DNA of 64,000 nucleotides from a virus, in IMG/VR virus record IMGVR_UViG_3300030616_000001, positions 1-64,000 of that record; one strand, given 5' to 3'. The translations under genes and the position numbers were made by a program. The notes under the pieces were generated by a model. That model saw nothing but the letters and a program-made list of their open reading frames with translations, did no database searches and was not told the DNA's origin. Shown piece by piece: positions 36,266 through 52,196 of the stretch. Position 1 is the stretch's first letter. Every line of letters starts with the position of its first letter.

Positions 36266-36786
36266 CTGTCCCCTCCAGGTGGGCGCCCCTTGGCCCACAG
36301 CGGCCCGAACTGGACGTCCACGGTGCCGACCGCGTCCGGGTCCAGTGAGTGGACGCCGGCGCAGAACCCACGGAACGCGGCGGTGCCGTCGAGCACGGTC
36401 AGGACCTCGGTGGAGAACGGGGTGAACGCCCCGGGGTTGGCCGGGACGGGCTGCGGCGGCTCCTGCTTGGTGTACGCCAGATAGAACGCCGCGTACTTCG
36501 CAGCCGCGTTGGCGATCATGGCCAGGGCGCCTTCCAGCTTGCCGGTCTTCTGGTTGACGACCAGACCGAACGAGTTGGCAGCGACCTCACACGCCCAGTC
36601 GTACCTGGCGGCGGCCATCGACTCGCCGAGTTCACCGCCGCCGTACTGGCGCTCCAGTCCCTTGGTGAATGTGAACTTGAGCTCCACGAGGTCGTCCTCG
36701 CGCGGCCGAGGGATCGGGATCGGCAACGGAACCGTGATCGGGTCCAGTTCGTCGGGGAATGTGTCCCCACCACCACCGCTTGCCAT
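36262..36786 (-). CDS. Hypothetical protein
   Basis: 174 aa, RBS, co-oriented and coupled to the next gene. Confidence 0.6.
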   Translation of the reverse strand: MASGGGGDTFPDELDPITVPLPIPIPRPREDDLVELKFTFTKGLERQYGGGELGESMAAARYDWACEVAANSFGLVVNQKTGKLEGALAMIANAAAKYAAFYLAYTKQEPPQPVPANPGAFTPFSTEVLTVLDGTAAFRGFCAGVHSLDPDAVGTVDVQFGPLWAKGRPPGGDR

Positions 36787-36855
36787 CTAGTCCTCGTCCT
36801 TCGGCGGCCAGTCCTTGGGTACTGGGCGCGGTTTCGGTTTGTCGTCGGATCGCAT
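36787..36855 (-). CDS. 22-aa micro-ORF MRSDDKPKPRPVPKDWPPKDED
   Basis: Read by hand. GGAAAGGA RBS 6 nt before ATG, fills the intergenic gap exactly, and its TAG is followed immediately by the in-frame ATG of the next gene. Confidence 0.45.
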   Translation of the reverse strand: MRSDDKPKPRPVPKDWPPKDED

Positions 36856-36874
36856 GTCGTGTCCTTTCCGCCGT

Positions 36875-37993: not shown

Positions 37994-38220
37994 TGATCTC
38001 TCCTGTATTCGCGGCCCAGCGTGGCGGGAGAGACGACCCGCTCCATACCGCCGAGGCCAGAGATGGCGGACGTGAGGCGGATCATGCCTGTGTCGTCCAC
38101 CTCGGCGACACGGACGCGGCGCATCGGGTGCGGTTCGCCGGCCTCGTCGATCGCCAGGTTGATGAAGTAGTCCCCGACGTGGACTGACGGATCCTTTGCG
38201 GCGTCGAACAGGCTACCCAT
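37990..38220 (-). CDS. Hypothetical protein
   Basis: 76 aa, overlaps the portal stop and the next start. Confidence 0.55.
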   Translation of the reverse strand: MGSLFDAAKDPSVHVGDYFINLAIDEAGEPHPMRRVRVAEVDDTGMIRLTSAISGLGGMERVVSPATLGREYRRDQ

Positions 38221-40171
38221 CGTCCTCCTCCGCCTCCAGGTCGTCCACGTCCCGGAACTCCGCGGACAGGTCCATGTCGAACCCGGCCTGGCGCAACTCG
38301 TCGGTGAGGATCGCCTCGACCCGCTTCGCCAACTGGTTCAGCTGGTTGGTCAGCTGCGCCATCGTCGCCACCTGCTCCTCGTCCCCCTCCTCGGGTACGA
38401 CCTGGCCGCCCTCGCCGATCCCAGCGAGGGTCATCGGCATCGGCCACCGGCTCCACTCCTCCTCGACCTTGGCCAGGCCGCGGTTGAGCGCGTCGCCGAG
38501 CAACGTGCGGATCTCGTAGGGCAAGAGGCCGCCGTGGGGCGCCGCCACCTTGATCAGATCAGCGATCTCCTCGGGGCTACGGGTCGGCGGGGAGTTGGAC
38601 CGGAACTTGTGCAGGCCGACGCCGATCCTGGGCAGGATGTACTTGTTCACAACCCAGTCGATGTCCTCGCGCTCAGGCTCGAAAACCTGTTCCTCCGCGA
38701 ACGACAACGCCGCGATGGCCGTGGCACGGTTGAGGTTCTTCGGGGTGTAGCCCCGCAGCATCGGTGGCAACCGGAACGAGGCGCCGATCCGATCCGCGCT
38801 GCGCTCGTCGTAGTTGGTGAAGGTGGCGTCGTTCTGCTGGGCGGACCGAAGGGACTCGAACTCCATCGTGGGCATCAGGGTGCGCTCCTCACCCTTCTGC
38901 TTCATGGGGTGCGCCTCCACGACCAGGATCTTGTGGCGGTTCTCGGACCCGCCGAACTCCTGGGTCATCCGCTGCTCGAGGCGGTCCTTCATGTCCCGGG
39001 GCACCTTGCCGCCGCCGACGAACAGGATCCCAGGCGGGATCGCGCTGCTGTCCAGGTAGAAGTAGTTCGTCTCGTCGGCCTCGCGCACTCCCAGAACGGC
39101 CAGGAGGTTGCCGATCCAGCGTGGCGGCGGACACGGGCTACGCGGGTCGTGGAGCGGGATGTAGATCAGCTCGTTGGCTTCCTTCGCGTCCTTGCCCTCG
39201 CCGCCGTCTTCCTCTGGGCGCCGCATCTCCTGGACCGACTTGTAGATCGTGCCCGTGGTGGCGCTGATCACCCGTGGATCCCCGGGGGACTTGTAGTAGG
39301 ACTTGCGGTCGCCGACGATCTGGACGTACCTGCGGAACCGACGGTGCACCAGGACCTCGCGTCCTTCGGACAGCGGTGTGACAGGATCCGGCTCGGTGAC
39401 CTCGACCAGTTCGCCCTCGTCCCGTAGCGGCCGCACCGTGTAGCCCGGGATGTAGTTGAGGCGCTTCAACCGGTCGTAGCCGTCGGTCAGCATCTCCCAC
39501 GCGCCCCACCCGTGCGCCTCGATGTCGTACCTGGTGACCCGGCGGAGTTTGATGAACGACATCGCGCTGCAGCACGTCTTGAAGAACGCCTCGAACAGGA
39601 ACTGCTCTCGGCGCAACGCAACGCGCAACTGCTCGCGGACGTCGTCGATCTCCTGGTCGGTGATCTCCCCGTCGTCGTCCTCGTCCACCGGCTCGCCGGC
39701 GTCGGGATCCAGTTCAGGATCCGGCTCGTCCTCGTCGGCCTTCTCCGCGGCGTCCAGGGCGGCTTCCTCCTCCTCGACCCACCGCTCGATCTGGAGCGCG
39801 TTGCGGATCGCCTCGGTGGCCTCCTCGCTGTCCAGGTCCTCCATCCACGACTCGCACACCACGGCCTGGAAACCATATCCCTCGATGTTGGTCTGATAGG
39901 CGGCGATGTTGGGCGCGACGTGGGGCGTCAGCTCGATGTAGTTGAGAAGGGACTCGGGGTCGTAGGGTGGTTCCACCGCGCCGGCGTCACCGTACACCTC
40001 GCGCCGACGGTCCAGGGCGCCGATCGCCTGACTCTCGTCGACGGAACGGCCGGTCATCACCGCTGCCTTGGCCAGGACCTCCCGGATGTCCACCACGAAC
40101 CCGGTGTCGTCCGTCTTGCCCTTGGTGGTGTGCCCGCCCTTGGCCCCGCCTCTTTTCGCGGGACCCCCCAT
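38213..40171 (-). CDS. Portal protein (PBSX-type)
   Basis: VEPPYDP, DIEAHGWGAWE, ANELIY, PRW, IPPGILFVGG, SFRLPP...G...NRATA...EEQVFEPE. Start at ATG 40171 (TGATG overlap). Confidence 0.92.
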   Translation of the reverse strand: MGGPAKRGGAKGGHTTKGKTDDTGFVVDIREVLAKAAVMTGRSVDESQAIGALDRRREVYGDAGAVEPPYDPESLLNYIELTPHVAPNIAAYQTNIEGYGFQAVVCESWMEDLDSEEATEAIRNALQIERWVEEEEAALDAAEKADEDEPDPELDPDAGEPVDEDDDGEITDQEIDDVREQLRVALRREQFLFEAFFKTCCSAMSFIKLRRVTRYDIEAHGWGAWEMLTDGYDRLKRLNYIPGYTVRPLRDEGELVEVTEPDPVTPLSEGREVLVHRRFRRYVQIVGDRKSYYKSPGDPRVISATTGTIYKSVQEMRRPEEDGGEGKDAKEANELIYIPLHDPRSPCPPPRWIGNLLAVLGVREADETNYFYLDSSAIPPGILFVGGGKVPRDMKDRLEQRMTQEFGGSENRHKILVVEAHPMKQKGEERTLMPTMEFESLRSAQQNDATFTNYDERSADRIGASFRLPPMLRGYTPKNLNRATAIAALSFAEEQVFEPEREDIDWVVNKYILPRIGVGLHKFRSNSPPTRSPEEIADLIKVAAPHGGLLPYEIRTLLGDALNRGLAKVEEEWSRWPMPMTLAGIGEGGQVVPEEGDEEQVATMAQLTNQLNQLAKRVEAILTDELRQAGFDMDLSAEFRDVDDLEAEEDDG

Positions 40172-40488
40172 CACAGAACCTTGCCGGCGATCTTGAGCTC
40201 GGCGCTGTTGAGGACCCCGGCGTTGGTGCCGTTGACCCGCACGTAGTTGTACTGCGCGGGGATCACCCCCTGTGCGTCCGCCGGTCCCAGGCCCGCCTGG
40301 ATCGCGGTCCACACGTCGCCGGCCACCGAACCCTCCAGGGTGAACACAGCCACCACCCCCACGTCGGTCTGGTACTCGTACCCCTTGTCCGACATCTGGC
40401 GCACGTCGTGCTCGTGGCCGGCGCCCAGGGGCAGCGAACCTACCGGGTTCTCGTCGAACGGATACACTCTGATCTCTGGCATCGCCAT
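40171..40488 (-). CDS. Small beta-sandwich protein (possible virion decoration)
   Basis: FTLEGSVAGDVW...YNYVRV jelly-roll-like pattern. Confidence 0.5.
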   Translation of the reverse strand: MAMPEIRVYPFDENPVGSLPLGAGHEHDVRQMSDKGYEYQTDVGVVAVFTLEGSVAGDVWTAIQAGLGPADAQGVIPAQYNYVRVNGTNAGVLNSAELKIAGKVL

Positions 40489-40498
40489 GTGGTCCTCC

Positions 40499-41038
40499 TC
40501 AGTTCATCGAAGCTCGGGACGCGGCCATCGCCTTTTGCGCCAGGTCCCGCGCGTCTTGGTCGGCCAGTGGGTCGGCGGCCTGTCGCATCAGGATCCGCGT
40601 CGCCGCCACCCGAAGGTCGTTCCAGTCCTTGCGTCGGTGCATCAGTTCCAGGACCTTGTTGACCGCGTCCTTGGACGCCTTGGCCTTGCGGTCGTCCACC
40701 ACGTCCCGGAAGAACGCGGCCAGGATCCGGGGCTTCTGCTCGTCCGGTGCCGCGTGAAAGTCCGCGAGGAGGTGCTCATGGAACACCCCGTCGTCGATCT
40801 GCTGCGCCGCCTCTTTCATGATCCGGTCGAACTCGTCGGGCTGGACACCACCGTCGGCTCGGCTCACGCACCGGCAGATGATCGGGATCTGCTGCGGCCC
40901 GTTGCCGTCGCCCAGGTCGGCGTTCTTGTACCCCACGATCCCGCGGCCGTTGCACCGCTTGCACCCGGGCTTGGCCTTGGCCAGGTCCACGTGCTTGGCA
41001 AGCCGCACACGAGGCGGCGCCTGATCACGCTTGGTCAT
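40499..41038 (-). CDS. Zn-finger protein
   Basis: CKRCNGRG...CRC. Start set at ATG 41038. Confidence 0.6.
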   Translation of the reverse strand: MTKRDQAPPRVRLAKHVDLAKAKPGCKRCNGRGIVGYKNADLGDGNGPQQIPIICRCVSRADGGVQPDEFDRIMKEAAQQIDDGVFHEHLLADFHAAPDEQKPRILAAFFRDVVDDRKAKASKDAVNKVLELMHRRKDWNDLRVAATRILMRQAADPLADQDARDLAQKAMAASRASMN

Positions 41039-41618
41039 CGTCCCCCTCCAGTTCCTTGACCCGTCCCTGCCACCACCGCCGCAGACAGCCGCGGCACTTG
41101 GTCTTGCCGAAGTCCTTGGGGTGGTGACGGCACTTCGTCTCCCTGTCCACGTGCGTCCCTGTGCCTGGTTCTGCCCGTTGGAAGTGGTCACGTAGGGTTC
41201 CGGTCGGGACCAGGACGCGGACAGGCGGCAGGTCCCCGTCTCGGACCACGCACGGCACCAGGAGTTCCATGTGGTCGGGGCCGCCAGTGAACAGGTCCGG
41301 TCGGATCTCCACCGCCTCCTCCCACACCTCGTCGCACTCCTCGATGTCCTCGAGGGCGCGTTCGAGCTCGGCGTCGTCCACGTCCACCTCGGTGCCCCCG
41401 GGAAGGCCCAGGCGCAGACCCAGGACCCGCTCCCACTGGTCGTCGTTGACCGCGGCGATCACGGTGTCGTTCAGGGTAACGAACGCCTTGCCCGCGAGGG
41501 CGCGGTATGGGTGCTGTGCAATCTCGGTGGTCACGGTCACGTCTCCGTTGTCGTAGCGGCTGTACTCCGCGCCGGTTTCCACATCGCGCATGGTCGTGGA
41601 TTTAGAACGGGTACTCAT
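41025..41618 (-). CDS. Hypothetical protein with C-terminal Cys/His cluster
   Basis: CRHH...CRGC. Overlaps the terL stop, start uncertain. Confidence 0.55.
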   Translation of the reverse strand: MSTRSKSTTMRDVETGAEYSRYDNGDVTVTTEIAQHPYRALAGKAFVTLNDTVIAAVNDDQWERVLGLRLGLPGGTEVDVDDAELERALEDIEECDEVWEEAVEIRPDLFTGGPDHMELLVPCVVRDGDLPPVRVLVPTGTLRDHFQRAEPGTGTHVDRETKCRHHPKDFGKTKCRGCLRRWWQGRVKELEGDDDQA

Positions 41619-43191
41619 GCTCGTCCTCGTCACCGATGTGGATCTCCATTACATCTTCCCCCCCGTCGGCGTCCACGTCAAGGAAGTGCGTCCGTGCAGC
41701 ACCGACCAGCTGCGAAAAGGCGTCCACCATGTCGTCGTGCTTGCCGAACGGGAACTCGATCAGTTCGTCCACGAGGCTGCCGCGGCTGCCGTCGAACAGG
41801 TCGCCGTTCGGGTCCAGGTGGGCCGAGAACACCACCTTGCCCTTTTCCAGCAACGGAGTGGCGCCGAGGAGGCGCATCTGCTTGCTGATCTTGGGCTTGG
41901 TGACCTTGATGTGGCCCTCCATCTCGGGGTGTTCGTTAATGACCCACTCGTCCACGGTGGACAGGCCGATCTTCTCGATCAGGACCAGCCACGGATCGTA
42001 TGTCTGCGCCTCGGCGTGGATCACGTCGGCCAGGGTCTTGACCGACATCCGCTGGTGCCAGGCGTCCACGATGTACAGGACCCCGCGCTCCTGGTCGATC
42101 GCGCCGACGCAGCACCCAGTGTAGTCCTGCTGCTTGCTGGTCTTGGACCGTGGGTTGGGCGTGCCGGCGGGGTCGTAGCTGGTGAAGAACACCAACCGAT
42201 CCTGCTCCACCAACTCGGCGAACCGTTGGTCCTGGCGCAGGTCGCTGAACTCGAACCAGTCCGGTCGGATCAGCGCGGACTCTATGTCGATCGCCTGGTT
42301 GCGGAAGGCCCGGTTGAACTCGATGCTCTGGATCTCGTCGAACCGCATCCGCAGCGCGGCCTCACTCCACTTGTCCGGCCAGATCGCGCCGAAGTTGGCG
42401 TCGATGTCGTACCGCAGCACCTTGTACGTGGTGCCGCCCATGATCTCGTGGGACAGGTCCCCGGGGTGCCACAACGTGCAGATGTACCAGACGCGGCTGT
42501 CCGGCTCGAGGAGGTTGGTCCAGTCCGCCTTCCACGCCTGCTTGATCTGCTCGCGGAGGGCCGGGAAGGTGAGGGCGTTGCGGCGGTCCACCACGTCGTC
42601 GGCGATCAGCAGGTCGGCGCGGCCGCCCGTCGCCGTGGAGGTGATGCCCAGTGCCTCCACCGACGCGTCCCTGTGTCTCGCGGATCGCATCAGGACCAGA
42701 CGGTGCGCGTTCCATGGCGCGTCAGGGTTCGGCCGTAGGTCGGGGAACACCTCCCGGACACGCGGGTTCGTGGTGATGTGCTGGTCGATCTCGAACAGGC
42801 GTTCCTTGGCCCGCCCGTCGCTCGCGCACACCACCTTGGTCCGCAGGTTCGGGTTGTTGCCCAGTTCCCAGATCACGCGGCCCACCACGTTGCTGGTCTT
42901 GGCGTGGTCACGAGGCGCGATCACCATGACCCGCTGATACCGATCCCAGGCCTTATGCCACTCGTCGTGGAACCACTGCTGGGCGTAGGGAAGGCGGCTC
43001 GACTCGTCCAGGAACGCATACTCCATGAACGCCGACGCCGACTTGCGAGCGAGGGCGACGTGGTGGTTGCGAATCGCCACGGCACGCTTGACCAGGCGCT
43101 CCCGGGACGGTGGTCGGATGAACTTGTCCGCGACCAGCCGCGGGAGGTGGCCCACCGGAGGGCGGAAGTCCTTGTGGATCGCGCCGTCCAC
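41602..43191 (-). CDS. terL: Terminase large subunit
   Basis: Walker A APRDHAKT, Walker B LLIADDVV, RNase-H nuclease SYDPA...HDDMVDA. Confidence 0.95.
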   Translation of the reverse strand: MDGAIHKDFRPPVGHLPRLVADKFIRPPSRERLVKRAVAIRNHHVALARKSASAFMEYAFLDESSRLPYAQQWFHDEWHKAWDRYQRVMVIAPRDHAKTSNVVGRVIWELGNNPNLRTKVVCASDGRAKERLFEIDQHITTNPRVREVFPDLRPNPDAPWNAHRLVLMRSARHRDASVEALGITSTATGGRADLLIADDVVDRRNALTFPALREQIKQAWKADWTNLLEPDSRVWYICTLWHPGDLSHEIMGGTTYKVLRYDIDANFGAIWPDKWSEAALRMRFDEIQSIEFNRAFRNQAIDIESALIRPDWFEFSDLRQDQRFAELVEQDRLVFFTSYDPAGTPNPRSKTSKQQDYTGCCVGAIDQERGVLYIVDAWHQRMSVKTLADVIHAEAQTYDPWLVLIEKIGLSTVDEWVINEHPEMEGHIKVTKPKISKQMRLLGATPLLEKGKVVFSAHLDPNGDLFDGSRGSLVDELIEFPFGKHDDMVDAFSQLVGAARTHFLDVDADGGEDVMEIHIGDEDEHEYPF

Positions 43192-43192
43192 G

Positions 43193-43789
43193 CTACTTCT
43201 TCTTGCCGCTCACCTGGAACTTGTGGCCGCACTCGGGACACGTCGCCTCCACGGTGATCGTCACGTTGGACTTCGCGTCCTTCTTCTCCTGGAGGGCCTT
43301 CAGCTGCTCGTCGTTGGCCTTCTTGAACGCGTTCCAGTCGAAGTCGACCATCTGGGAGAACCCCTCCAGGGTTTCCCGGTCGAACGGCATCGTGGTGTTG
43401 AGGTCGGCCACGTTGAACTCGGCGCCGCTGCCGCTGGTCATCTCCTTGATCAGGACCGCCAGCTTGGCGTCGTCGCGCTTGAACTTCGTCTCGTTCGTCT
43501 CGATGGCGATCCGCCACGCCTGGGAGTCGGTGATCGGGCCAAAGTTGAAGCACACCGCTTTCTTGATCCCCAGGTGGTTGAACGCGGCGAGGCGGTGGTT
43601 CCCGTTGATCACCTCGAAGAACCCCGTGTCCAACTCGCGCACTAGGATGTTCTCCACCTGACCGTTGCGCTTGATGTTGGCGATCAGCTTCTCGGCCTGG
43701 TCCGGGTCCTCCACCTTGTAGTTCCAATCGGCGCCTACGAGCTTGCCCACGGGCAACTCGATCCATCGCGGGTCATTGAGCTTGGCCAT
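43193..43789 (-). CDS. ParB/Srx N-terminal-domain protein with C-terminal Zn ribbon
   Basis: NIKRNGQVENILVR...EVINGNHRL and C-terminal CPECGHKF. Confidence 0.85.
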   Translation of the reverse strand: MAKLNDPRWIELPVGKLVGADWNYKVEDPDQAEKLIANIKRNGQVENILVRELDTGFFEVINGNHRLAAFNHLGIKKAVCFNFGPITDSQAWRIAIETNETKFKRDDAKLAVLIKEMTSGSGAEFNVADLNTTMPFDRETLEGFSQMVDFDWNAFKKANDEQLKALQEKKDAKSNVTITVEATCPECGHKFQVSGKKK

Positions 43790-44636
43790 CGCGCATCTCC
43801 TGTTGCGCCGTGTCGGCGCGTGTCTGGTCGTTCCACTCGATCCCGCGCTCGCGCCACATCGACGTGACGGACTCCTGGAGGCGGTGTCGTTTCATCAGCC
43901 ACCGCGTGAACCGCACCTTGCACTTCTCGGCGCCAGCCAGGTCCTCGCGTTGTTCAACTTGGGCGGCGAGCACGGCCTCGACGGTGTTGAGTCCCTTCTC
44001 GGCCAGGTCCCGCAGCTTGTAGGTGCGCCCGTCCTGCATGTGCCACGTCTTGTTGCCCGCCTGGAGGGATCCGGCCGACGAGTCCGCGGAGTAGAACGGG
44101 TAGCGGCGCAGGATCTTCTCGCTGCCCACGCCGAACATATGGATCTTGCGGGTGTCCCGGTACTTGGCCAGGACGCGGGCGTATAGGTCGTCGAGCCAGA
44201 TGATCTTCGCCGCGTCGCTCTTGCCCACCACGCCGCCCAGGCAGAAGAACTCGTACCGCTCGGCCAGTTCCTCGAGCACCGCGATCGGCTCCCCGAAGTG
44301 GTAGGTGGGCAACGGCGCGAACCCCGCCTCCTCCATGACCCGCTGGTTCTCCGCGCTGGCCACCGGGTCGCCGATCACGTCCAGCCCGGCGTACACGTCG
44401 ATCAGGTGGGACCGGTCGGCGATGAACTTCATGTACTCGTCGATGTCGATCTCGATGCCCAGGGTGTTGGCGCTGTGGGCGCCGCTGTCCAGGAAGAAGT
44501 GGAACCTGTCGTCGAGCAGGTCCACGGTGGGCAGGAACCGCTGGGCGTAGACGTAGCTGATCAGGACGTTGGGATACAGCGTCTCGATCACCGCCTCGAG
44601 ATCCTGGCGCTTGATCACGACCTCGAACACCCTCAT
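43773..44636 (-). CDS. dpdA: DpdA-like DNA 7-deazaguanine transglycosylase (TGT fold)
   Basis: FFLDSGAHS, LDVIGD, PTYH, CLGG, IHMFG, SADSS TGT-barrel motifs with no tRNA-TGT C-terminal CxCxxC Zn site. Start at ATG 44636 (ATGA overlap). Confidence 0.85.
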   Translation of the reverse strand: MRVFEVVIKRQDLEAVIETLYPNVLISYVYAQRFLPTVDLLDDRFHFFLDSGAHSANTLGIEIDIDEYMKFIADRSHLIDVYAGLDVIGDPVASAENQRVMEEAGFAPLPTYHFGEPIAVLEELAERYEFFCLGGVVGKSDAAKIIWLDDLYARVLAKYRDTRKIHMFGVGSEKILRRYPFYSADSSAGSLQAGNKTWHMQDGRTYKLRDLAEKGLNTVEAVLAAQVEQREDLAGAEKCKVRFTRWLMKRHRLQESVTSMWRERGIEWNDQTRADTAQQEMRDGQAQ

Positions 44637-45223
44637 GACAGCCCCCATGCCTTGTGCGCCTGGACGTTGAGCCGCCAGGGAATCTCGCTGGTGTTCTCCT
44701 CGATCAGGTGGACCGCCCACCGCACGTTCTCGGGAACCAGGCGGTCCCCGTCGTACGCGGGGGACAGGAAGTAGTTGTCCGCGGCGATCAGTGGCACCGG
44801 GATCTTGCACCCGGCCTCCACGATGTACTTCAACTCGGCGACGGGGCGGCTGAAGTTCTCGATCAGGCGCGACGGGCCGACCTTGGGACTGACCACCACG
44901 TAGTCTATCCCCTCGGGCACGGCAAGCGTGCCGTTGGTTTCGATTGTGAGCATGGCGCCGAGCGCGTGGAGTGCGCGGACCAGAACGTTGTCGACCTGGA
45001 GCGCGGGTTCGCCGCCGCACAGGGACACAACGTCGGCCCCCAACTCCTCGACCTCGTCCAGGATCATCTGGAGGGACATCTCCCTGGCGTTGACGTGCTC
45101 CTTGGTGTCGCAGAACGGGCAGTTGAGGTTGCACCCGCTGAACCGCAGGAACGTGGTTGGGATGCCGATCCTGGCGCCCTCGCCCTGGATCGACCGCACG
45201 ATCTCGTGGACCTTGTACAGCAT
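44633..45223 (-). CDS. queE: 7-carboxy-7-deazaguanine synthase (radical SAM)
   Basis: SIQGEG...FLRFSGCNLNCPFCDT, GGEP, IETNG, SPK, QAHK. Start at ATG 45223. Confidence 0.95.
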   Translation of the reverse strand: MLYKVHEIVRSIQGEGARIGIPTTFLRFSGCNLNCPFCDTKEHVNAREMSLQMILDEVEELGADVVSLCGGEPALQVDNVLVRALHALGAMLTIETNGTLAVPEGIDYVVVSPKVGPSRLIENFSRPVAELKYIVEAGCKIPVPLIAADNYFLSPAYDGDRLVPENVRWAVHLIEENTSEIPWRLNVQAHKAWGLS

Positions 45224-45978
45224 CAGTTGTGCCCCCTCTCGTCCCGGTGCGCCCGGTCGTAGGCCAGTTGCTCCGGGGTCTTGACATTCTGCTCCCCGTC
45301 GTACCAGCCGCCGGCCCACAACGCTTCCTCCCGCTGGCGGCATGAGTCGCACTCGCCGCAGTGGGCGTCGCCGTCCAGGTAGCACGACCACGTGGCGTCG
45401 TAGTCCACGCCCAGCTTGCGCCCCAGGTCCACGATCCTTGCCTTGGGCCAGGTGGCGAACGGAGCACAGATCCGCGGGTGGAACGACGGGTCGGTGCCCT
45501 CCCGGGCCGCACGCTCCATCGCCTCCACGAACTCGAGACGGTCGTCCCAGTAGTTGCCGCTGTCCAGGCCGTTGGCGCCGAGGTAGATGCTGCTGATCCC
45601 GTGGGCCTCGGCGAACCCGACCGCGTAGGCCAGGAAGATCCCGTTGCGGAACGGGACGTAGCTGGCCGGCGTGCCGCCCTCCTCGATCTGGCCGCGACTG
45701 CGCCCCTTCGGAAGCCCCTGGACCGCGCTGGTGTTGGCCTTCAACAGGCCGCACTCCGGGGCCATCCACCCCATGTCCACCCGCACGATCTTGGTGGTGG
45801 CGCCGTACTTCTGCGCGTTGTCCACGGCAACGTCGAGCTCACGCCGCAGCGTCTGTCCGTAGTCGAAGATCAGTGCGACGATCTCCTCCGGGTTGAGCAG
45901 GTGCATGTTCTGCATCCGCGCCAGGCACGTGGTACTGTCGATCCCGCCTGACAGTAGGATCACCGCTCCTCGATTCAT
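45223..45978 (-). CDS. queC: 7-cyano-7-deazaguanine synthase
   Basis: LLSGGIDS PP-loop, YVPFRN, TWSCY...CGECDSC Zn site. Confidence 0.93.
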   Translation of the reverse strand: MNRGAVILLSGGIDSTTCLARMQNMHLLNPEEIVALIFDYGQTLRRELDVAVDNAQKYGATTKIVRVDMGWMAPECGLLKANTSAVQGLPKGRSRGQIEEGGTPASYVPFRNGIFLAYAVGFAEAHGISSIYLGANGLDSGNYWDDRLEFVEAMERAAREGTDPSFHPRICAPFATWPKARIVDLGRKLGVDYDATWSCYLDGDAHCGECDSCRQREEALWAGGWYDGEQNVKTPEQLAYDRAHRDERGHN

Positions 45979-45981
45979 CTC

Positions 45982-46560
45982 CTACCCCTCCCGGCCCGCG
46001 AAGGCCATGAACTCGGCCCTGGTGCGCGGGTCCTCGAGGAACCGTCCACGCAGGGCCGTTGTGGTCATCCATGCTTCCCGTTTCTCCACACCCCTCGCCA
46101 CCATGCACAGGTGACGACCACGGACCAGCACGCCCACGCCCAGAGCACCTGCGGTGGACTCCACTACGTCCGCGATCTGGTCGGTCATCCGCTCCTGGAT
46201 CTGGAGGCGGCGGGCGTACACCTCGACGGCACGCGCCAGCTTGGACACCCCCACCACCTTGCCGTTCTTGTCCGGCAGGTAGGCGACATAGACGTGGCCG
46301 TAGAACGGCAGGATGTGGTGCTCGCACGTGGACCAGTATTCGATGGGACCGAGGCACACCATCTGGTTGTAGCTGTCACTGGCGAACGCGGTCTGGAGGA
46401 TCCCCTGGGGCTCCTTGTCGTAGCCGCCGAACAGGTGCTTCCAGGACTTGACCACGCGCTTCGGCGTGTCCTTCAACCCCTCCCGGTCCGGGTCCTCACC
46501 GATGTACTCCAGCATGGTCCGAACCGCGGCGAGCGCGTCTGCTTCTGTCGGCCTGGTCAT
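45982..46560 (-). CDS. folE: GTP cyclohydrolase I
   Basis: [42 protein letters not shown]. Start at ATG 46560. Confidence 0.96.
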
Positions 46561-47045
46561 TGGATCGCCTCCTCGTAGTCCGCCTCCCACGTGGCGCACG
46601 ACTTCTCCGTCTCCCACACGTCCACCCTGATCACGTCCGCGCCGACCACCGGGATCTCGGCCAGGCCCCGGGCGATCATCGACGCGAGCAGGGTGGCCAT
46701 GTTCTCGGCGGTGGGCATGTTGATCATCACCACGACCCGCAGGTCCAGGTCCGCGGCACGGAGCACCTCCAGGAGCGGATCCTGCTCCCACAGGATCACG
46801 GCGTGGTCCCACGGCACCGTGTCCGCGCCGCACCACTTCCCCTCGTCCAGGATCCCGCGCACCACCGTGGACAGGTCCTTGAAGTCGGCGACCATGCCGG
46901 TGGAGGGACCGACGCGGCGCAACTCGGCCCCCTCGAGATGGGCGACGACGCGGTAGCTGTGGCCGTGCAGGTTGCGGCATCCACCCTCGTGGAGTGGCAG
47001 TCGGTGTGCCGCCTCGAATTTGAATTCCTTGCTGATACTGTGCAT
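46557..47045 (-). CDS. queD: 6-carboxytetrahydropterin synthase
   Basis: FEAAHRL...[22 protein letters not shown]. Confidence 0.95.
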
Positions 47046-47519
47046 CTAGTCCTCCACCTCGTCTGGTCCGTCGAACGCGACCGGGCCGACGTCATCGCCG
47101 CCGTCGAGCGGCAACTGTTCAAGATCCTCATGGGCCGCGCCGGTCAGGGCGAACTCCACCAGCTGACCCGGGACCAGTGGGCCGCCGCACCCCTTGCACT
47201 CCTCACCAACGCGCTGTCCCGTGTTGGCCCGGAGTCCGCACTTCTGACACGTCACATCGTAGATGGCCGCGATGGCGCCGACGCCCGTCTTGTCCTGTAC
47301 ACCGAACAGGCCGTTGAGCAAGCCCAACGTGCCCAGCAGGTACAGGGTGCGCCCGTCGTCCGCCTTGTGGAACAGCACCTGGACCGTGGGGTGGTGAGCC
47401 ACCGGCGGCTCCACCGCGATCCGCGTGTTGACCAGGACCCCCATGCCGTCCCGGTCACGCTCCACCAAGTCGTTGAGCAGTTCGATCACCTCGTGCACAC
47501 TGACATTCGCCTTGATCAT
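47046..47519 (-). CDS. Conserved phage hypothetical protein with Zn ribbon
   Basis: HPTVQV...LGLLNGLFG and CQKC...CKGC. Start at ATG 47519. Confidence 0.6.
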
Positions 47520-47536
47520 CGCGCCTCTCCCGTTGT

Positions 47537-47713
47537 TTATTCGGCCACCTGGGGCCGTTGATCGTCCGCCGCGGTGACCCGGATCCCCGGGGCTGCTTCT
47601 TGCCGCACCGAACACTGTTCGTTCCACGCCACCCGCAACAGCCGGTCCACGGTCCACGGCCACCGGCCGCGTTCCACTCGGATCGTGAATGTTCCCGCGT
47701 CCTTGGACGGCAT
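47537..47713 (-). CDS. 58-aa hypothetical protein (below ORF-track cutoff)
   Basis: Read by hand as MPSKDAGTFTIRVERGRWPW...PQVAE*. GGAGG RBS, fills the gap. Confidence 0.45.
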   Translation of the reverse strand: MPSKDAGTFTIRVERGRWPWTVDRLLRVAWNEQCSVRQEAAPGIRVTAADDQRPQVAE

Positions 47714-47716
47714 CAC

Positions 47717-48205
47717 CTATCCCTCCTGAACCTCGCGCTTGAGGTCGACCAGGACACGACGCAACGCGTCCCGTTCGTCACGGACATCGCACAGGTAGGT
47801 CACGATCTCCTTGAGGCGTCCGAGCATCTCCTGGCGCTCGACCCGCTGTTCCTCGATCCTGTTCACCGCCTCGGCCCGACGCGCCCTGGTCTGGCCCAGC
47901 TCCTCCTCGAGCGCGGCCACGCGGCGGCACAGGTAGTCCACCACCGCCGTGGGCGGCACCTCGTTGTCGGTGGCGCACGTCTCCGGGGTGGTGAACACGA
48001 CGCGCTCGTCCAGGTTGCGGACGGTGGCGTGGTCCGGGATCCCCAGGAACCGCCGCAACCGGCCCCGTTCGGCGCTGTCCTCGATCAGTGCACCAAACCG
48101 CCGCGCGATCTCTGGGTGCTTGGTGGTCAGGATCTGCGCGTCCTTGGCGCCCATGACCTCCCACAGCATCTCCAGGGCCACGTTCTTGCCTGGTCCCTCG
48201 CCCAT
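47717..48205 (-). CDS. Hypothetical coiled-coil protein
   Basis: Start set at ATG 48205. C-terminal heptad repeats. Confidence 0.55.
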   Translation of the reverse strand: MGEGPGKNVALEMLWEVMGAKDAQILTTKHPEIARRFGALIEDSAERGRLRRFLGIPDHATVRNLDERVVFTTPETCATDNEVPPTAVVDYLCRRVAALEEELGQTRARRAEAVNRIEEQRVERQEMLGRLKEIVTYLCDVRDERDALRRVLVDLKREVQEG

Positions 48206-48206
48206 C

Positions 48207-48689
48207 TTACTGCTCCACCCTGGCGCACCGGAGGAGCATCCGCACCGTGAACATCCGCACCTCGCCGGCGACGCCCACGTCGGTGGCGCCGCACTCCCCG
48301 GCGGTGACCACCCCGATCTTGATCGGCACCTTGGACGCGATGCACGGCCGCCCGCCCTCGGGACCGGGCAACTCGTTGGGGTATTCCAGCATGTCCGCCG
48401 CCGCACCGCCTAGCAGCATGTCGATCATCGACTTGGCCGCCACCTCGGGCATGCCCATCGCGGCCTCCACGGTTAGGTTGGCCTCGGCGATGAAGTCCCT
48501 GCCGTCCTCGAGCTCCGCGACGACGCCCATCCCCACGTCGCCGGCCACGTCCTGGTCGCCGTCGATGGGGTGGATCAGGTCCTCCATCGCGTAGCCGCTG
48601 CACTGCACGTCCACGGGGCACCAGTGGACCTCGCCGTCGAACACGTTGGCGCCGTCCACAAACTTCTTGAGTAGTTCCCTTGGCTCCAT
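48207..48689 (-). CDS. Hypothetical protein
   Basis: 160 aa, GGAGG RBS. Confidence 0.55.
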   Translation of the reverse strand: MEPRELLKKFVDGANVFDGEVHWCPVDVQCSGYAMEDLIHPIDGDQDVAGDVGMGVVAELEDGRDFIAEANLTVEAAMGMPEVAAKSMIDMLLGGAAADMLEYPNELPGPEGGRPCIASKVPIKIGVVTAGECGATDVGVAGEVRMFTVRMLLRCARVEQ

Positions 48690-48703
48690 CTCGGCCTCCT
48701 GCC

Positions 48704-49348
48704 CTATCGGGCGTGATCGGGCATCTTGCCCGTCGTCATGAACTCCACCACCTCGTCCTCGGTCCAGTCCCGGAACGGGTCGTCGCCGCGGTGCTCGTGG
48801 ATCTGGTCCGGTCCGCCCAGGAACCGCTCCATCAGCCGCGCCCCGCGCTCGTAGGTCGCCAGGGCCGACGCCAGCGACGCGCCGGTCTTGATCTTCTTGC
48901 CGTCGCTGTCCTGGTACTCCTTGACCCGCACCAGGATCTCCGCCTTGATCAGCCGCAACTCGGCCAGGCTCACCTGGATGATCTCGTCCAACTCCTCGGC
49001 CTGTTCCTCGTGGAACCTGATCAGGGACAGCTGCTTCCGCTCCTGCGCCTCGGCCTGGACGTCCAGGAACGCCTTCCGAATCGGCGCCATGCCCTCGTTC
49101 GGCCGCCCCGCACCGTCGATGTAGAATTTCGCCGTGGACCAGCCGACGCCCGCCGCCTTCGCCGCCTTCTCGATGTTCTGGTCCTTGAAGAACGCGTCCT
49201 GGAGCTTATTGAAGGTGGCGACGTTGATCCGCGGTGCCCGGACTTTCCCCGGCTTCTTCGGTGGCTTGCCCTGGCCGGGCGACTTGCCCCTACTAGCCTT
49301 TGCCGGCGGTTTGGCCGAACCACCACTGCCCTTGCCCTTCGCTGTCAT
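48704..49348 (-). CDS. Probable terminase small subunit
   Basis: Basic N-terminal tail, HTH (NIEKAAKAAGVGWSTAKFY), helical oligomerisation region and C-terminal DWTEDEV. Second gene of the packaging operon. Confidence 0.6.
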   Translation of the reverse strand: MTAKGKGSGGSAKPPAKASRGKSPGQGKPPKKPGKVRAPRINVATFNKLQDAFFKDQNIEKAAKAAGVGWSTAKFYIDGAGRPNEGMAPIRKAFLDVQAEAQERKQLSLIRFHEEQAEELDEIIQVSLAELRLIKAEILVRVKEYQDSDGKKIKTGASLASALATYERGARLMERFLGGPDQIHEHRGDDPFRDWTEDEVVEFMTTGKMPDHAR

Positions 49349-49551
49349 GAGCCGTGCTCCTGGAGGAGACGCCGGAGCGTCCCCTTGAACTGGGACCCGT
49401 CTTGACCATTGATCTTGTCAAGGGTGGCGCCCACCATCAACTCGGTCACGGTGACATCGAGCGCAGTCGCGGCGTTGCGGATCGCGGTCAGCTCCTCCGG
49501 TGTGAGTCGGAGGTTGACCTGGGCAGTGCGCCGTTTCTCGCGTATAGACAT
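49345..49551 (-). CDS. Ribbon-helix-helix DNA-binding protein
   Basis: RTAQVNLRLTPEELTAIRNAATALDVTVTELM. Start at ATG 49551, ATGA-coupled to the TerS candidate. Confidence 0.75.
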   Translation of the reverse strand: MSIREKRRTAQVNLRLTPEELTAIRNAATALDVTVTELMVGATLDKINGQDGSQFKGTLRRLLQEHGS

Positions 49552-49561
49552 CGTTGCCTCT

Positions 49562-49602
49562 GTATATACGGGATCGCGGCGGCGCCTGTCAAGTATATAT
49601 AC
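49562..49602 (-). promoter_or_regulatory. Promoter of the packaging/modification operon with GTATATAC palindromic boxes
   Basis: TTGACA(49592-49587)-N18-TATATA(49568-49563). Palindromes GTATATAC 49562-49569 and GTATATATAC 49593-49602 in a GC-rich background. Confidence 0.6.
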
Positions 49603-49610
49603 GCCTGGGA

Positions 49611-49847
49611 TTACTGAGGCCCGAAGTCGTCGCGCTGAAGGATCCGCACCTTGCCCTGGCAGAACATGGGGTGAGCGTTCTCCAGCATCGCGTCCGCCCA
49701 GGTGTAGCCGGGAGGTTCCCCGGGGTACTGGTGAGACTTCTCCTCGCGGAACGCGGCCAGTTCGGCGTCGGTGAGCTCGCGGCACTCGGTGCCGGCGGGG
49801 ATCGTGAACCCGTAGAAGCGCAGATCCCTGGTGAGTTGATGGGTCAT
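49611..49847 (-). CDS. Hypothetical protein
   Basis: 78 aa, ATGA-coupled. Confidence 0.5.
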   Translation of the reverse strand: MTHQLTRDLRFYGFTIPAGTECRELTDAELAAFREEKSHQYPGEPPGYTWADAMLENAHPMFCQGKVRILQRDDFGPQ

Positions 49848-50182
49848 CGGTCGCCTATCCTCTCCGGGCGCAGATTAACGGATTGCGCCACACAGCTGCG
49901 CCGACCACGGGGCGGATCCCCGAACCCTCCCAGGACCAGTGGGTTGATCAGGCGCATGTACCTCCCGTCCTCGTTGCGGATCTCCATGTCGGGCAGTCGC
50001 CGCCGCACCACGTCGGTCAGCGCGTAGAACAGGTCCCGGTCCCTGGTGCGGACGCACCGGATCGACACGTCCCCGGGGCGGGCCGTGAACCGCTCGCACT
50101 TGATCGTGGTGGTGTGGACCAGGGGCGGCGTGACCGTCCCAACCTCCTTGCCGTCGATCAGCAGCTGGCTCTTGTACGACAT
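49844..50182 (-). CDS. Hypothetical protein
   Basis: 112 aa, RBS GGAGGAG. Confidence 0.5.
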   Translation of the reverse strand: MSYKSQLLIDGKEVGTVTPPLVHTTTIKCERFTARPGDVSIRCVRTRDRDLFYALTDVVRRRLPDMEIRNEDGRYMRLINPLVLGGFGDPPRGRRSCVAQSVNLRPERIGDR

Positions 50183-50185
50183 CGC

Positions 50186-50464
50186 CTACTCCTCCACCGC
50201 CTCGACCCGGAGGCCGTTGAGCGCCATGTGGGTGAACCCGGCCGGGTCGTCGTGGGCCTTGTCGCCGGCGCCACGCAACAGGACCTTGACCACCCCGGGG
50301 ATCGGCTCGGGGAACCGGGTACGGAACCGCATCGTGCCGGCCTCGACACGCCGCACCTCGTCCCGGATCGCCTCGATGGGAACGGCCGTGCCGCCGCTGC
50401 CCTGGAGGTAGCCCACCGCCTCGGCGCCGGTGAGGACGTTGGTGAACTTGTACAGGTACGCCAT
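50186..50464 (-). CDS. Hypothetical protein
   Basis: Start set at ATG 50464 (TGATG overlap). Confidence 0.5.
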   Translation of the reverse strand: MAYLYKFTNVLTGAEAVGYLQGSGGTAVPIEAIRDEVRRVEAGTMRFRTRFPEPIPGVVKVLLRGAGDKAHDDPAGFTHMALNGLRVEAVEE

Positions 50465-51033
50465 CACCTGTCCTCCGTGGCGTCGTGGACCGGGTTCTGG
50501 CAGTCGTCGCACCTGTACCGTCCCGGCTCGAGTTCGGCGCCGCACGTGCAACGACTGGGTGGCGCGTCGTCCCGCTCGTGGGCGACGATGTGGCTCAGGG
50601 CCATCTCGGTCAGGACTTGGCCCAGGGAGATCCCGGTGGCCTCCGTGATCGTGCCCACCTCCGTGGCCAGGATCTCCAGGAGGTCGTCCTGGTTGAGCGG
50701 ATCGCTGCCCTGCTCAAGCTCCACCGTGGACTCGGTGATCATCGACACCCCTTCCTCGGGGGACTTGTTCCGCTCGAACTGGATCACGACGCGCCCCTTC
50801 TGGCGCTGCCGCTCCGGTGGCACCTGGACGAGGTCCACCGCGAACCGCATCGTCCACTCGTTCTCGCAGTGGCCGCAGTACACGTCGATCTCCCAGTACC
50901 CCTCCTCCGGGTTCGGTTCGCCGCACTCCACGTCGAACTGGTCGGCCAGTGTTGGTGTCGCCGCACCGCACCTGGGGCACTCCAGGATCTTCGGCAGGCC
51001 GAGCATCTTGTTGAGGTCCAAGTTGTTGCCCAT
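50464..51033 (-). CDS. Double Zn-ribbon protein
   Basis: CPRC...CGHC and CTC...CDDC. Confidence 0.6.
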   Translation of the reverse strand: MGNNLDLNKMLGLPKILECPRCGAATPTLADQFDVECGEPNPEEGYWEIDVYCGHCENEWTMRFAVDLVQVPPERQRQKGRVVIQFERNKSPEEGVSMITESTVELEQGSDPLNQDDLLEILATEVGTITEATGISLGQVLTEMALSHIVAHERDDAPPSRCTCGAELEPGRYRCDDCQNPVHDATEDR

Positions 51034-51049
51034 CGGATTACCCTTTCCT

Positions 51050-51232
51050 CTAAAACATCACCACGGTGACCACGGTGATGAACCCGGCGATCCCGGCGCC
51101 CAGGGCGAGCGAGATCAAGACCAGGCGCCTGTTCCAGCGCACGTTGCGCTCCACCGACCGCTTCCACTCCATCTCCGGCTCGTACCACGGGGACTCGTTC
51201 TGGCCGGGGTGTCGTGCGAACTTCATGGTCAC
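51050..51232 (-). CDS. Small membrane protein
   Basis: C-terminal hydrophobic helix LVLISLALGAGIAGFITVVTVVMF. Confidence 0.5.
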   Translation of the reverse strand: MTMKFARHPGQNESPWYEPEMEWKRSVERNVRWNRRLVLISLALGAGIAGFITVVTVVMF

Positions 51233-51528
51233 CCCCTTCTCTGCGGCACGATGCCCATCATGGACTCGACCGCGTCCTGTTCTTCTTGCGCCTCAATCCA
51301 CTGCTCCACGTCCGGGAGTTCGCGCTGTGCACGGTACAAGGCGTCGGCGGTCTGACGCATCAGGTCCAGCTTGGCCGCTCCCCGTCGGTAGAGGCTCGGA
51401 TCGAAGATCGGCGCGACCGTCTGGCTGCGCTGGATCGCGTTCAGGAAGCCCGCGAGATCCAGATCGCGCAACACCGCGGCGATGGCGGTGATCTTTGTCT
51501 GGGTCGCCGTATATTCGGAAGGATCCAT
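51229..51528 (-). CDS. Hypothetical protein
   Basis: 99 aa, coupled to its neighbours. Confidence 0.55.
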   Translation of the reverse strand: MDPSEYTATQTKITAIAAVLRDLDLAGFLNAIQRSQTVAPIFDPSLYRRGAAKLDLMRQTADALYRAQRELPDVEQWIEAQEEQDAVESMMGIVPQRRG

Positions 51529-51531
51529 CGG

Positions 51532-51774
51532 TCACCCCCTCCCTGTCAGAACCCGGTCCAGGCGTCGGGCCACGCGCAACATGCCCACGCCGATCCCGTG
51601 GGCGAAGATCGCCGGGACGGAACTGGGCTGCCGTTCCTGGAGTTGGACCATCGCCGTGCCCGGGACGACCGTGTCCAGGACGTTGACTTGGATTGTGAAC
51701 GGCAGGTCACCACGGTGCTGGTCCAGGAACTCCTCGACGGCCCGCTTCAAGTCGCTGTTGGTGATGATCCTCAC
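51532..51774 (-). CDS. Hypothetical protein
   Basis: 80 aa, GTGA overlap. Confidence 0.5.
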   Translation of the reverse strand: MRIITNSDLKRAVEEFLDQHRGDLPFTIQVNVLDTVVPGTAMVQLQERQPSSVPAIFAHGIGVGMLRVARRLDRVLTGRG

Positions 51775-52196
51775 GGCTCACCTCCTTGGCGCGTCTCCGC
51801 CGCGATCTGCTTGTACCGCTGGAGGAGGTGGTCAAGCTCGTTGACCTTGCCCCGGATCGCGTCCAGCGCCTTCTCGGTGGCCATGACTGGATCTGCGAAG
51901 ACCCGGTCCACCGGCCAGTTCACCACGTGGCCGAGATGGGTGGCCAGGCGCATCCCCTTGATCGGAGGGGACTCGCCGCCGCGCTCCGACGGGGGGTACT
52001 TGACCTCGGACAGGAACACGAGCCGCTGAACGCGGATCCGCTCGTTGTACACGGCGTCGTCGTGGCGCGACGTGATTCCGCACCACTCGGGCCACGGGTC
52101 CACGATCCACACCTCCTGGCCGAACTTGAACTGGGGAACTTTCTGTGCCTCTTCCATCCGCTTACCCTTTCTGCGCCTGGCTGCGGCGCGTTTCAA
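51771..52196 (-). CDS. Hypothetical protein (SH3-like start PQFKFGQEVW)
   Basis: Start is either TTG 52196 or ATG 52157. Confidence 0.5.
   Translation of the reverse strand: MKRAAARRRKGKRMEEAQKVPQFKFGQEVWIVDPWPEWCGITSRHDDAVYNERIRVQRLVFLSEVKYPPSERGGESPPIKGMRLATHLGHVVNWPVDRVFADPVMATEKALDAIRGKVNELDHLLQRYKQIAAETRQGGEP

What the first reader, a model, noticed from the sequence alone, without database searches (positions are those of the whole stretch)
41602..49602. Complete 7-deazaguanine DNA-modification pathway built into the packaging operon, between the TerS candidate and TerL
Seen: one promoter-like element (49563-49592) precedes a tightly coupled run of RHH, TerS-like, four unknowns, queD, folE, queC, queE, dpdA-like TGT, ParB-like and terL. 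Established: FolE/QueD/QueE/QueC convert GTP to preQ0, and phage DpdA transglycosylases exchange guanine in DNA for 7-deazaguanines as anti-restriction. ParB-domain genes next to terminases are known to co-occur with DNA-modifying enzymes. No queF, arcS or Gat-QueC is present here, so the default product is dPreQ0 (or dADG). Inference: the cassette is expressed with packaging rather than replication, so modification may be installed late, with the ParB-Zn-ribbon protein coupling DpdA to the terminase. A probable Myxococcota-type host would be an under-sampled setting for this chemistry.
Basis: partly seen in the sequence, partly recalled or inferred. Interest (0 to 1): 0.8.

Follow-up and report, generated by a model that had tools for sequence, protein, structure and literature searches.

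The report
Phage deazaguanine DNA-modification cassette beside terminase
An uncultured 95-kb phage carries, just before its DNA-packaging enzyme, a full gene set for making a guanine analogue and swapping it into its own DNA, plus a small ParB-like helper; the layout is already known from cultured phages, so this is a well-supported but ordinary example.

Summary
On the minus strand, a unique promoter-like site (49563-49592) precedes a tightly packed gene run. The run is RHH, a TerS-like protein, four unknowns, QueD, FolE, QueC, QueE, a DpdA-type DNA guanine transglycosylase, a small ParB-N protein and TerL.

The transglycosylase groups with phage DpdA (closest: CAjan), not with tRNA TGT models. 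Its model has the TGT barrel and three invariant aspartates. No QueF, DpdC or YhhQ is found in the genome. The expected product is therefore dPreQ0, as in phages Rosebush and CAjan. One caveat is a QueC with two motif substitutions seen in no other of 90 phage QueCs.

The layout is not new. Rosebush has ParB-DpdA-QueC-QueD-QueE-FolE-TerL. This scan already holds 34 similar notes from at least 31 genomes.

My survey shows dpdA-parB is a conserved overlapping pair (70 of 80 loci chosen by ParB alone). It usually lies upstream of terS-terL. In phage phiSM the pair sits among replication genes instead. The same ParB-N family is fused to DNA methyltransferases. ParB is therefore best read as a helper of the modifying enzyme, not a terminase coupler.

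Late timing is plausible but unshown, and the host is unknown.

The parts
49562..49602 (-). Promoter-like TTGACA-N18-TATATA (49563-49592), flanked by the palindromes GTATATATAC (49593-49602) and GTATATAC (49562-49569). Candidate operator for the RHH protein.
   Evidence: Read. It is the only match in the window against 0.06 expected, and holds the only TATATA in the 95-kb genome. The strict sigma-70 scan did not call it. The region has no special RNA fold.
49345..49551 (-). 68-aa ribbon-helix-helix protein (NikA/CopG-like). Its stop overlaps the start of the next gene (ATGA).
   Evidence: PF21983 at 3.2e-6 and 27.6 bits, cut-off 27. Coordinates.
48704..49348 (-). 214-aa TerS-like protein: a disordered Lys/Gly/Pro N-terminus, an HTH (residues 43-77), a 58-residue helix and a C-terminal helix.
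   Evidence: No HMM hit. It has 75 homologues. The AF2 model has pLDDT 87. There is no significant fold hit, but many weak BFVD hits are named small terminase. One of 43 homologues hits TerS phrog_4044. A homologue in L096 lies right after ParB.
47046..48689 (-). Four unknown ORFs: 160 aa (48207-48689), 162 aa (47717-48205), 58 aa (47537-47713) and 157 aa with CxxC...CxxC (47046-47519).
   Evidence: None has an informative family hit. Only the 157-aa protein is shared with the cassette-less relative L087.
46557..47045 (-). QueD (6-carboxytetrahydropterin synthase)
   Evidence: Pfam PTPS at 5.8e-26. TIGR03367 gives 72.6 bits, below its 89.25 cut-off.
45982..46560 (-). FolE (GTP cyclohydrolase I)
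   Evidence: NF006825 gives 235.8 bits, cut-off 174. Pfam match at 3.8e-65.
45223..45978 (-). QueC (7-cyano-7-deazaguanine synthase family). It has YWDDR in place of YPDCR and GQTL in place of GQ[RK]H.
   Evidence: Pfam QueC at 1.8e-49. TIGR00364 gives 142 bits against a 150.3 cut-off. The PP-loop and Cys cluster are kept. The motif variants are unique among 90 phage QueCs.
44633..45223 (-). QueE (radical-SAM 7-carboxy-7-deazaguanine synthase)
   Evidence: TIGR04508 at 6.4e-31 over the full length, below its cut-off. phrog_2076 at 9.2e-32. Start codon.
43773..44636 (-). DpdA-type DNA guanine transglycosylase, short form without the CAjan-type C-terminal extension.
   Evidence: phrog_887 at 1.1e-41. 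No Pfam or NCBIfam TGT hit. 39% identity to CAjan DpdA. AF2 pLDDT 90. TGT-barrel hits to 1iq8, bacterial TGT and bDpdA 7ui4. D50, D86 and D185 are invariant.
43193..43789 (-). 198-aa ParB-N protein with an NGNHR motif and a C-terminal CPxCG knuckle. It overlaps dpdA by 17 nt and lies 1 nt from terL.
   Evidence: phrog_723 at 9e-21. Its profile hits the Noc/ParB N-domain at 4.8e-6. It has 256 homologues. DpdA lies immediately upstream in 70 of 80 family loci. Long homologues are ParB-N fused to a DNA methyltransferase.
41602..43191 (-). Terminase large subunit
   Evidence: phrog_38 at 3.9e-72. Terminase_6C gives 33.1 bits, cut-off 22.6.

Best explanation
The block is a phage 7-deazaguanine DNA-modification module of the Rosebush/phiSM type.

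Proposed mechanism:
1. FolE, QueD, QueE and QueC convert GTP to preQ0.
2. The DpdA-type transglycosylase exchanges guanine in already replicated phage DNA for preQ0.
3. The resulting dPreQ0 shields the DNA from restriction in the next host.
4. The small ParB-N protein is translationally coupled to dpdA. It most likely acts as an activating or DNA-loading helper of DpdA. This would parallel bacterial DpdB with DpdA, and the ParB-like activators of phage thymine dioxygenases.
5. The position next to terL is a recurrent arrangement of ParB-linked modification genes. It fits late co-expression from the promoter at 49.59 kb, possibly auto-regulated by the RHH protein through the flanking palindromes.

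Shown here: gene identities, the fold, conserved residues, gene coupling and synteny statistics.
Inferred: the product, the ParB role, the timing and the RHH operator.
For: Pathway and DpdA:
- DpdA has the TGT fold and invariant aspartates D50, D86 and D185. These match the three invariant active-site aspartates described for DpdA and TGT (PMC10164549).
- Its best matches are experimentally proven phage DpdAs (PMC6884629).
- No QueF, DpdC or YhhQ is found in the genome.
- Rosebush has the same gene set beside TerL, and 28% of its G is dPreQ0 (PMC6884629).

ParB as a partner of the modifying enzyme:
- In 80 loci chosen only by ParB similarity, 70 have DpdA, usually overlapping it by 3-66 nt.
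- In 50 DpdA records, all 11 ParB_N hits lie directly downstream of dpdA.
- ParB linkage is clustered on the DpdA tree: 8 changes against 44 in shuffles.
- The pair also occurs in phiSM away from the terminase. phiSM DpdA1 expressed alone was inactive in E. coli (10.1101/2023.04.13.536721).
- The same ParB-N family is fused to N6/N4 and Dam methyltransferases.
- A phage ParB-like protein is required by its cognate DNA dioxygenase (PMC13229309).
Against: - No chemistry was measured.
- QueC carries unique substitutions (YWDDR, GQTL) of unknown effect. The base inserted could therefore be ADG, CDG or another derivative.
- The closest relative, L087 (TerL 80% and portal 85% amino-acid identity), keeps ParB abutting TerL but has no que or dpdA genes. 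ParB is therefore not strictly tied to DpdA.
- CAjan- and 9g-type DpdAs work without a ParB.
- The arginine of the GxxR motif is missing in the phiSM and Rosebush ParBs, so an NTP-dependent mechanism is doubtful.
- No ParB-DpdA fusion was found.
Confidence: 0.6

Rival explanations
1. First reader's model. ParB physically bridges DpdA to the terminase or the pac site. Modification is then laid down on the concatemer at or just before packaging.
For: - ParB lies 300-600 nt upstream of TerL, with terS between, in 61 of 80 loci. These span at least five TerL families.
- Here and in L087, ParB abuts TerL with a gap of 1 nt or less. L087 keeps ParB without DpdA.
- ParB-methyltransferase fusions also sit before terS-terL.
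- Terminases are frequent neighbours of ParB-linked dioxygenases (PMC13229309).
Against: - In phiSM the dpdA-parB pair lies among que and replication genes, next to the sliding clamp.
- Adjacency can be explained by late timing alone.
- Base exchange through a covalent enzyme-DNA intermediate is unlikely to keep pace with a packaging motor (general knowledge, not tested).
- No interaction was tested.
Confidence: 0.12
2. The module works as described, but the variant QueC does not make the nitrile. The DNA would then carry dADG, dCDG or an undescribed derivative rather than dPreQ0.
For: - YWDDR and GQTL replace motifs kept in nearly all 90 phage QueCs compared, including Rosebush.
- The TIGR00364 score is just under its cut-off.
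- Some DpdAs accept CDG and other bases (10.1101/2023.04.13.536721).
- Many ParB-linked loci have no detectable QueC at all.
Against: - The PP-loop, the Cys cluster and full-length alignment to solved QueC structures are intact.
- The roles of the two motifs were not established here.
Confidence: 0.15
3. ParB is a packaging or nuclease factor unrelated to DpdA (for example pac-site recognition or end processing), and its pairing with dpdA is positional.
For: - L087 keeps ParB-TerL without the cassette.
- Public records often annotate such genes as a ParB-like nuclease domain.
Against: - 70 of 80 family loci have dpdA overlapping parB.
- Most of the DpdA-less loci that could be judged carry a ParB-methyltransferase fusion instead.
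- phiSM keeps the pair away from the terminase.
Confidence: 0.12
4. The genes are an auxiliary metabolic set for queuosine in tRNA, not for DNA modification.
For: PHROG labels the family 'queuine tRNA-ribosyltransferase'.
Against: - There is no match to the tRNA TGT models of Pfam or NCBIfam.
- No QueF is present.
- The nearest characterised relatives modify DNA (PMC6884629).
Confidence: 0.03

Closest known systems
Mycobacterium phage Rosebush gp1-gp7 (subcluster B2)
   Same: ParB-like protein, DpdA, QueC, QueD, QueE and FolE lie directly upstream of TerL. dPreQ0 replaces about 28% of G (PMC6884629). The CRB2 paper already suggested that the ParB-like gene is a dpdB homologue (PMC6392294).
   Different: The gene order differs: ParB comes first there, and last here. 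Protein identities are only 31-39%. Rosebush gp1 matches this ParB family only weakly (3e-4). No TerS-like gene lies upstream of the Rosebush cassette.
Cellulophaga phage phiSM CEPG_00053/00052 (DpdA1 plus ParB-like)
   Same: It has the same short DpdA followed by an overlapping gene of the same ParB-N family (2.5e-21), together with que genes.
   Different: The phiSM pair sits next to the sliding clamp, not the terminase. Its ParB lacks the NGNHR arginine.
Escherichia phage CAjan / Queuovirinae DpdA1
   Same: Best BLAST relatives of this DpdA (39% identity). They have the same minimal FolE-QueD-QueE-QueC-DpdA set and make dPreQ0 (PMC6884629).
   Different: There is no ParB. The DpdA has an extra C-terminal extension. 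The cluster lies beside the DNA polymerase. These DpdAs form a separate clade with SH-aLRT support 96.
Bacterial Dpd system, DpdA with DpdB (Salmonella Montevideo)
   Same: A TGT-fold DNA transglycosylase needs a ParB-superfamily partner to insert preQ0 (PMC10164549).
   Different: DpdB is a larger, DndB-like ATPase with a helical C-domain and a DGQQR motif. Sequence similarity to bDpdA is not significant (E 0.62). There are no DpdC-K restriction genes here.
ParB-dependent phage thymine dioxygenases (5mYOX) (PMC13229309)
   Same: A small phage ParB-like protein (nucleotide-binding domain plus dimerisation end, no obvious DNA-binding domain) activates its cognate post-replicative DNA-modifying enzyme. 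Terminases are frequent neighbours.
   Different: The enzyme class and chemistry differ. That paper does not mention DpdA.

Membership tests
Phage DpdA (DpdA1-type DNA guanine transglycosylase) | TGT-like TIM-barrel fold | tested here: met
   AF2 model with pLDDT 90 and pTM 0.87. Foldseek hits: arcTGT 1iq8 at 1.8e-8, bacterial TGT, and bDpdA 7ui4 at 3.1e-6.
Phage DpdA (DpdA1-type DNA guanine transglycosylase) | Three invariant active-site aspartates (general acid/base, base recognition, nucleophile) | tested here: met
   D50 (FLDSGA), D86 and D185 (YSxDS) are invariant in 27 homologues. Their equivalence to Asp95, Asp130 and Asp256 of bDpdA is inferred from motif alignment (PMC10164549).
Phage DpdA (DpdA1-type DNA guanine transglycosylase) | Groups with phage DpdA rather than tRNA TGT | tested here: met
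   phrog_887 at 1.1e-41. No hit to Pfam or NCBIfam TGT models. Best relatives are CAjan-type DpdA. In the tree it is sister to the CAjan clade. No tRNA TGT sequences were included in the tree.
Phage DpdA (DpdA1-type DNA guanine transglycosylase) | 7-deazaguanine present in the phage DNA | not testable with these tools
   Requires LC-MS/MS or raw sequencing signal.
preQ0 pathway (FolE, QueD, QueE, QueC) | All four enzymes present and matching curated models | tested here: inconclusive
   FolE is above its NCBIfam cut-off. QueD, QueE and QueC match at full length and pass Pfam cut-offs, but fall below the NCBIfam equivalog cut-offs. QueC also has two unique motif substitutions.
ParB/Srx N-terminal domain (PF02195) | ParB-N fold with the GxxR box | tested here: met
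   The protein itself scores 22.9 bits, below the 26.3 cut-off. Its homologues carry PF02195. The family profile hits Noc/ParB structures at 4.8e-6, with NGNHR aligned to GERR.
Bacterial DpdB | DndB-like ParB ATPase with a DGQQR motif and a helical C-domain | not tested
   No DpdB sequence was at hand. The protein here is about half that size and ends in a CPxCG knuckle, so I treat it as an analogue, not a member.
Terminase small subunit | N-terminal HTH, oligomerisation helices, and a gene next to terL | tested here: inconclusive
   The architecture fits, and weak BFVD hits include many small terminases. There is no significant HMM or fold hit, and the gene lies 5.5 kb from terL.
Terminase large subunit | ATPase plus RNase-H-like nuclease domains | tested here: met
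   phrog_38 at 3.9e-72 over residues 29-501. Terminase_6C is above its cut-off.

The most novel reading that the evidence does not exclude
The ParB-N protein is both an obligatory activator of this DpdA subclass and a link to the packaging machinery. It would load near the pac or terminase entry site and carry the base-exchange enzyme (or, in other phages, a fused methyltransferase) along the concatemer ahead of packaging. This would explain why ParB-linked modification genes sit before terS-terL across unrelated terminase families.
Probability: 0.1. Interest if true: 0.7.

Novelty: new member of a known kind. Interest (0 to 1): 0.32.

Why it matters
As a single locus it adds one more, fairly divergent, example of a known anti-restriction strategy.

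The survey behind it has wider use. A large set of uncultured phages carries a short DpdA that is almost always translationally coupled to one ParB-N family. That same family is fused to DNA methyltransferases elsewhere.

This gives a directly testable idea: there may be a ParB-dependent subclass of phage DpdA. It could explain why phiSM DpdA1 was inactive when expressed alone. It would also extend the recently shown ParB dependence of phage thymine dioxygenases to base-exchange enzymes.

Tried and rejected
- phmmer of DpdA against PDB sequences found nothing. The profile search gave bDpdA only at E 0.62. Fold search was needed to place it.
- TerS candidate: no Pfam, PHROG or NCBIfam hit, no PDB sequence hit, no significant Foldseek hit in PDB or BFVD, and only HTH-type leads from the Atlas.
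- The strict sigma-70 scan did not call the promoter-like site, and terminator-like sites were at chance level.
- Host: there are no tRNAs. The portal search in species genomes hit only three short MAG contigs, so I rejected any host call.
- No DpdA-ParB fusion was found among the DpdA or ParB homologues.
- Pfam on the eight ORFs that replace the cassette in L087 gave nothing useful.
- The look-up of encoding contigs and complex prediction were closed, so no contig look-up or ParB-DpdA binding prediction was made.
- One mistaken call (17) and one over-limit call (39) returned errors.


Full report
**Context.** The window is the first 64 kb of a 94,958-bp IMG/VR virus record with a 117-bp terminal repeat, rated complete. 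GC content is 66%, and every credible gene lies on the minus strand. The replication genes (DnaB, DnaD-like/HNH, RecT, RecE) lie at 73-79 kb. The portal is at 38213-40312. The block under study therefore sits at the junction between the early/middle genes and the head genes.

**Observation.** HMM searches confirm the following:
- TerL: phrog_38 at 3.9e-72.
- A ParB-N protein: phrog_723 at 9e-21.
- A transglycosylase: phrog_887 at 1.1e-41.
- QueE, QueC, FolE (above its NCBIfam cut-off) and QueD.

Upstream lie four ORFs with no informative match, a 214-aa TerS-like protein and a 68-aa RHH protein. Start and stop codons give junctions between a 17-nt overlap and a 17-nt gap.

The only sizeable gap (49552-49610) holds TTGACA-N18-TATATA. 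This is the single match in the window, against 0.06 expected. It is bracketed by two AT palindromes that contain the only TATATA in the genome. No terminator or unusual RNA fold separates this site from the upstream genes.

**The transglycosylase.**
- It has no Pfam or NCBIfam TGT hit.
- Its best named relatives are phage DpdAs such as CAjan (39% identity). In CAjan, deleting dpdA abolishes dPreQ0 (PMC6884629).
- An alignment of 27 homologues has invariant D50, D86 and D185, plus the GG and HxFG motifs.
- The AF2 model (pLDDT 90) matches archaeosine TGT, bacterial TGT, bacterial DpdA 7ui4 and Cap10.
- The three aspartates fit the acid/base, base-recognition and nucleophile residues defined for DpdA and TGT (PMC10164549).

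**Product.** No QueF, DpdC (DUF328) or YhhQ is detectable in the whole genome. QueC is not fused to an amidotransferase. [quoted passage not shown]

This QueC has YWDDR where 90 other phage QueCs nearly always have YPDCR, and GQTL where they have GQ[RK]H. Only copies of the same phage share these changes. The effect is unknown.

**Is the layout new?** No. Rosebush has ParB-like, DpdA, QueC, QueD, QueE, FolE and TerL as gp1-gp7, and its DNA is 28% dPreQ0. The CRB2 paper already proposed that the ParB-like gene is a dpdB homologue (PMC6392294). This scan also holds 34 notes of ParB/DpdA cassettes near terminases, from at least 31 genomes.

**ParB.** The protein has 256 homologues at about 50% identity. 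Its profile matches the Noc/ParB N-domain, with NGNHR aligned to GERR. The C-terminus has one CPxCG knuckle in a subset of the family.

Survey results:
- Of 50 viral records with a DpdA relative, 11 have a ParB_N hit. In all 11 it lies directly downstream of dpdA.
- Of 80 loci chosen by ParB similarity alone, 70 have DpdA, usually overlapping by 3-66 nt. 61 have TerL, typically 300-600 nt downstream.
- The ORF in that gap is TerS in representative loci. The TerLs belong to several PHROG families.
- On a DpdA tree, ParB linkage needs 8 changes against 44 in shuffles. The ParB-less CAjan-type enzymes form one clade. Those enzymes lie beside the DNA polymerase.
- In the cultured phage phiSM, the same DpdA and ParB families overlap, but they sit beside the sliding clamp. 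phiSM DpdA1 alone was inactive in E. coli.
- Long homologues of this ParB-N domain are fusions to N6/N4 or Dam methyltransferases. Such fusions also precede terS-terL.
- A phage ParB-like protein has been shown to activate its cognate DNA dioxygenase (PMC13229309).

Taken together, ParB is best read as a helper of the DNA-modifying enzyme.

**Counter-evidence.** The closest relative is L087, a 97,966-bp contig with 50% GC. Its TerL is 80% and its portal 85% identical at the amino-acid level. It keeps ParB abutting TerL, but in place of que-dpdA it has eight small unknown ORFs. This leaves room for a packaging-linked role of ParB.

**TerS-like gene.** It has 75 homologues. The confident AF2 model shows a disordered basic N-terminus, an HTH and a 58-residue helix. 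There is no significant fold or HMM match. Weak BFVD hits are enriched in small terminases. A homologue in L096 follows ParB. I rate TerS as likely, at about 65%.

If that is right, this phage is unusual in having terS upstream of the cassette. The common order is que-dpdA-parB-terS-terL.

**Timing and host.** Late expression from the 49.59-kb promoter is plausible and biologically sensible, but it is not shown. The host is unknown.

**Verdict.** This is a real, complete and well-supported deazaguanine DNA-modification cassette, and a new member of a known kind. The proposed ParB-terminase coupling is not supported by the comparative evidence.

Noticed in passing
L087 (IMGVR_UViG_3300029258_003380, 32475-47071) against window 36000-52000: The closest relative shares TerL (80%) and portal (85%) at the protein level, yet has 50% GC against 66% here. 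Its slot between the 157-aa Zn-knuckle gene and ParB holds eight small unknown ORFs instead of que-dpdA.
   Followed up: partly
window 45223-45978: QueC has YWDDR in place of YPDCR and GQTL in place of GQ[RK]H. This is unique among the 90 phage QueCs compared.
   Followed up: partly
L090, L091, L100, L106, L108, L110, L114, L116 and others: Many ParB-linked DpdA loci carry QueD, QueE and FolE but no detectable QueC. In L005 the FolE-DpdA gap is too short for one. These phages may insert CDG or rely on the host QueC.
   Followed up: no
L138 6971-8302; L150 1140-2456; L153 483-1784; L164 1421-2722: ORFs of 433-443 aa matching this ParB family lie directly upstream of a ~200-aa ORF (TerS position), TerL and a portal-sized ORF, with no DpdA.
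   Followed up: partly
L093 5854-10096: Another relative has QueD and QueE immediately before ParB-TerL. No DpdA, FolE or QueC was detected within 7 kb upstream.
   Followed up: no
L170 3839-4303 (phiSM) and L002 1-792 (Rosebush gp1): The ParB-like partners of DpdA in these cultured phages lack the arginine of the GxxR box (VDGKVV and AGNHT). This argues against a conserved NTP-dependent mechanism.
   Followed up: partly
window 36875-38212: A protein in the head-gene region carries YadA-head repeats (PF05658, 4e-7), suggesting a fibre or adhesin.
   Followed up: no
L096 9950-11425: A 95-kb contig from the same sample as L085 has a DNA methyltransferase a short way downstream of its que-dpdA-parB-TerS-like block.
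   Followed up: no
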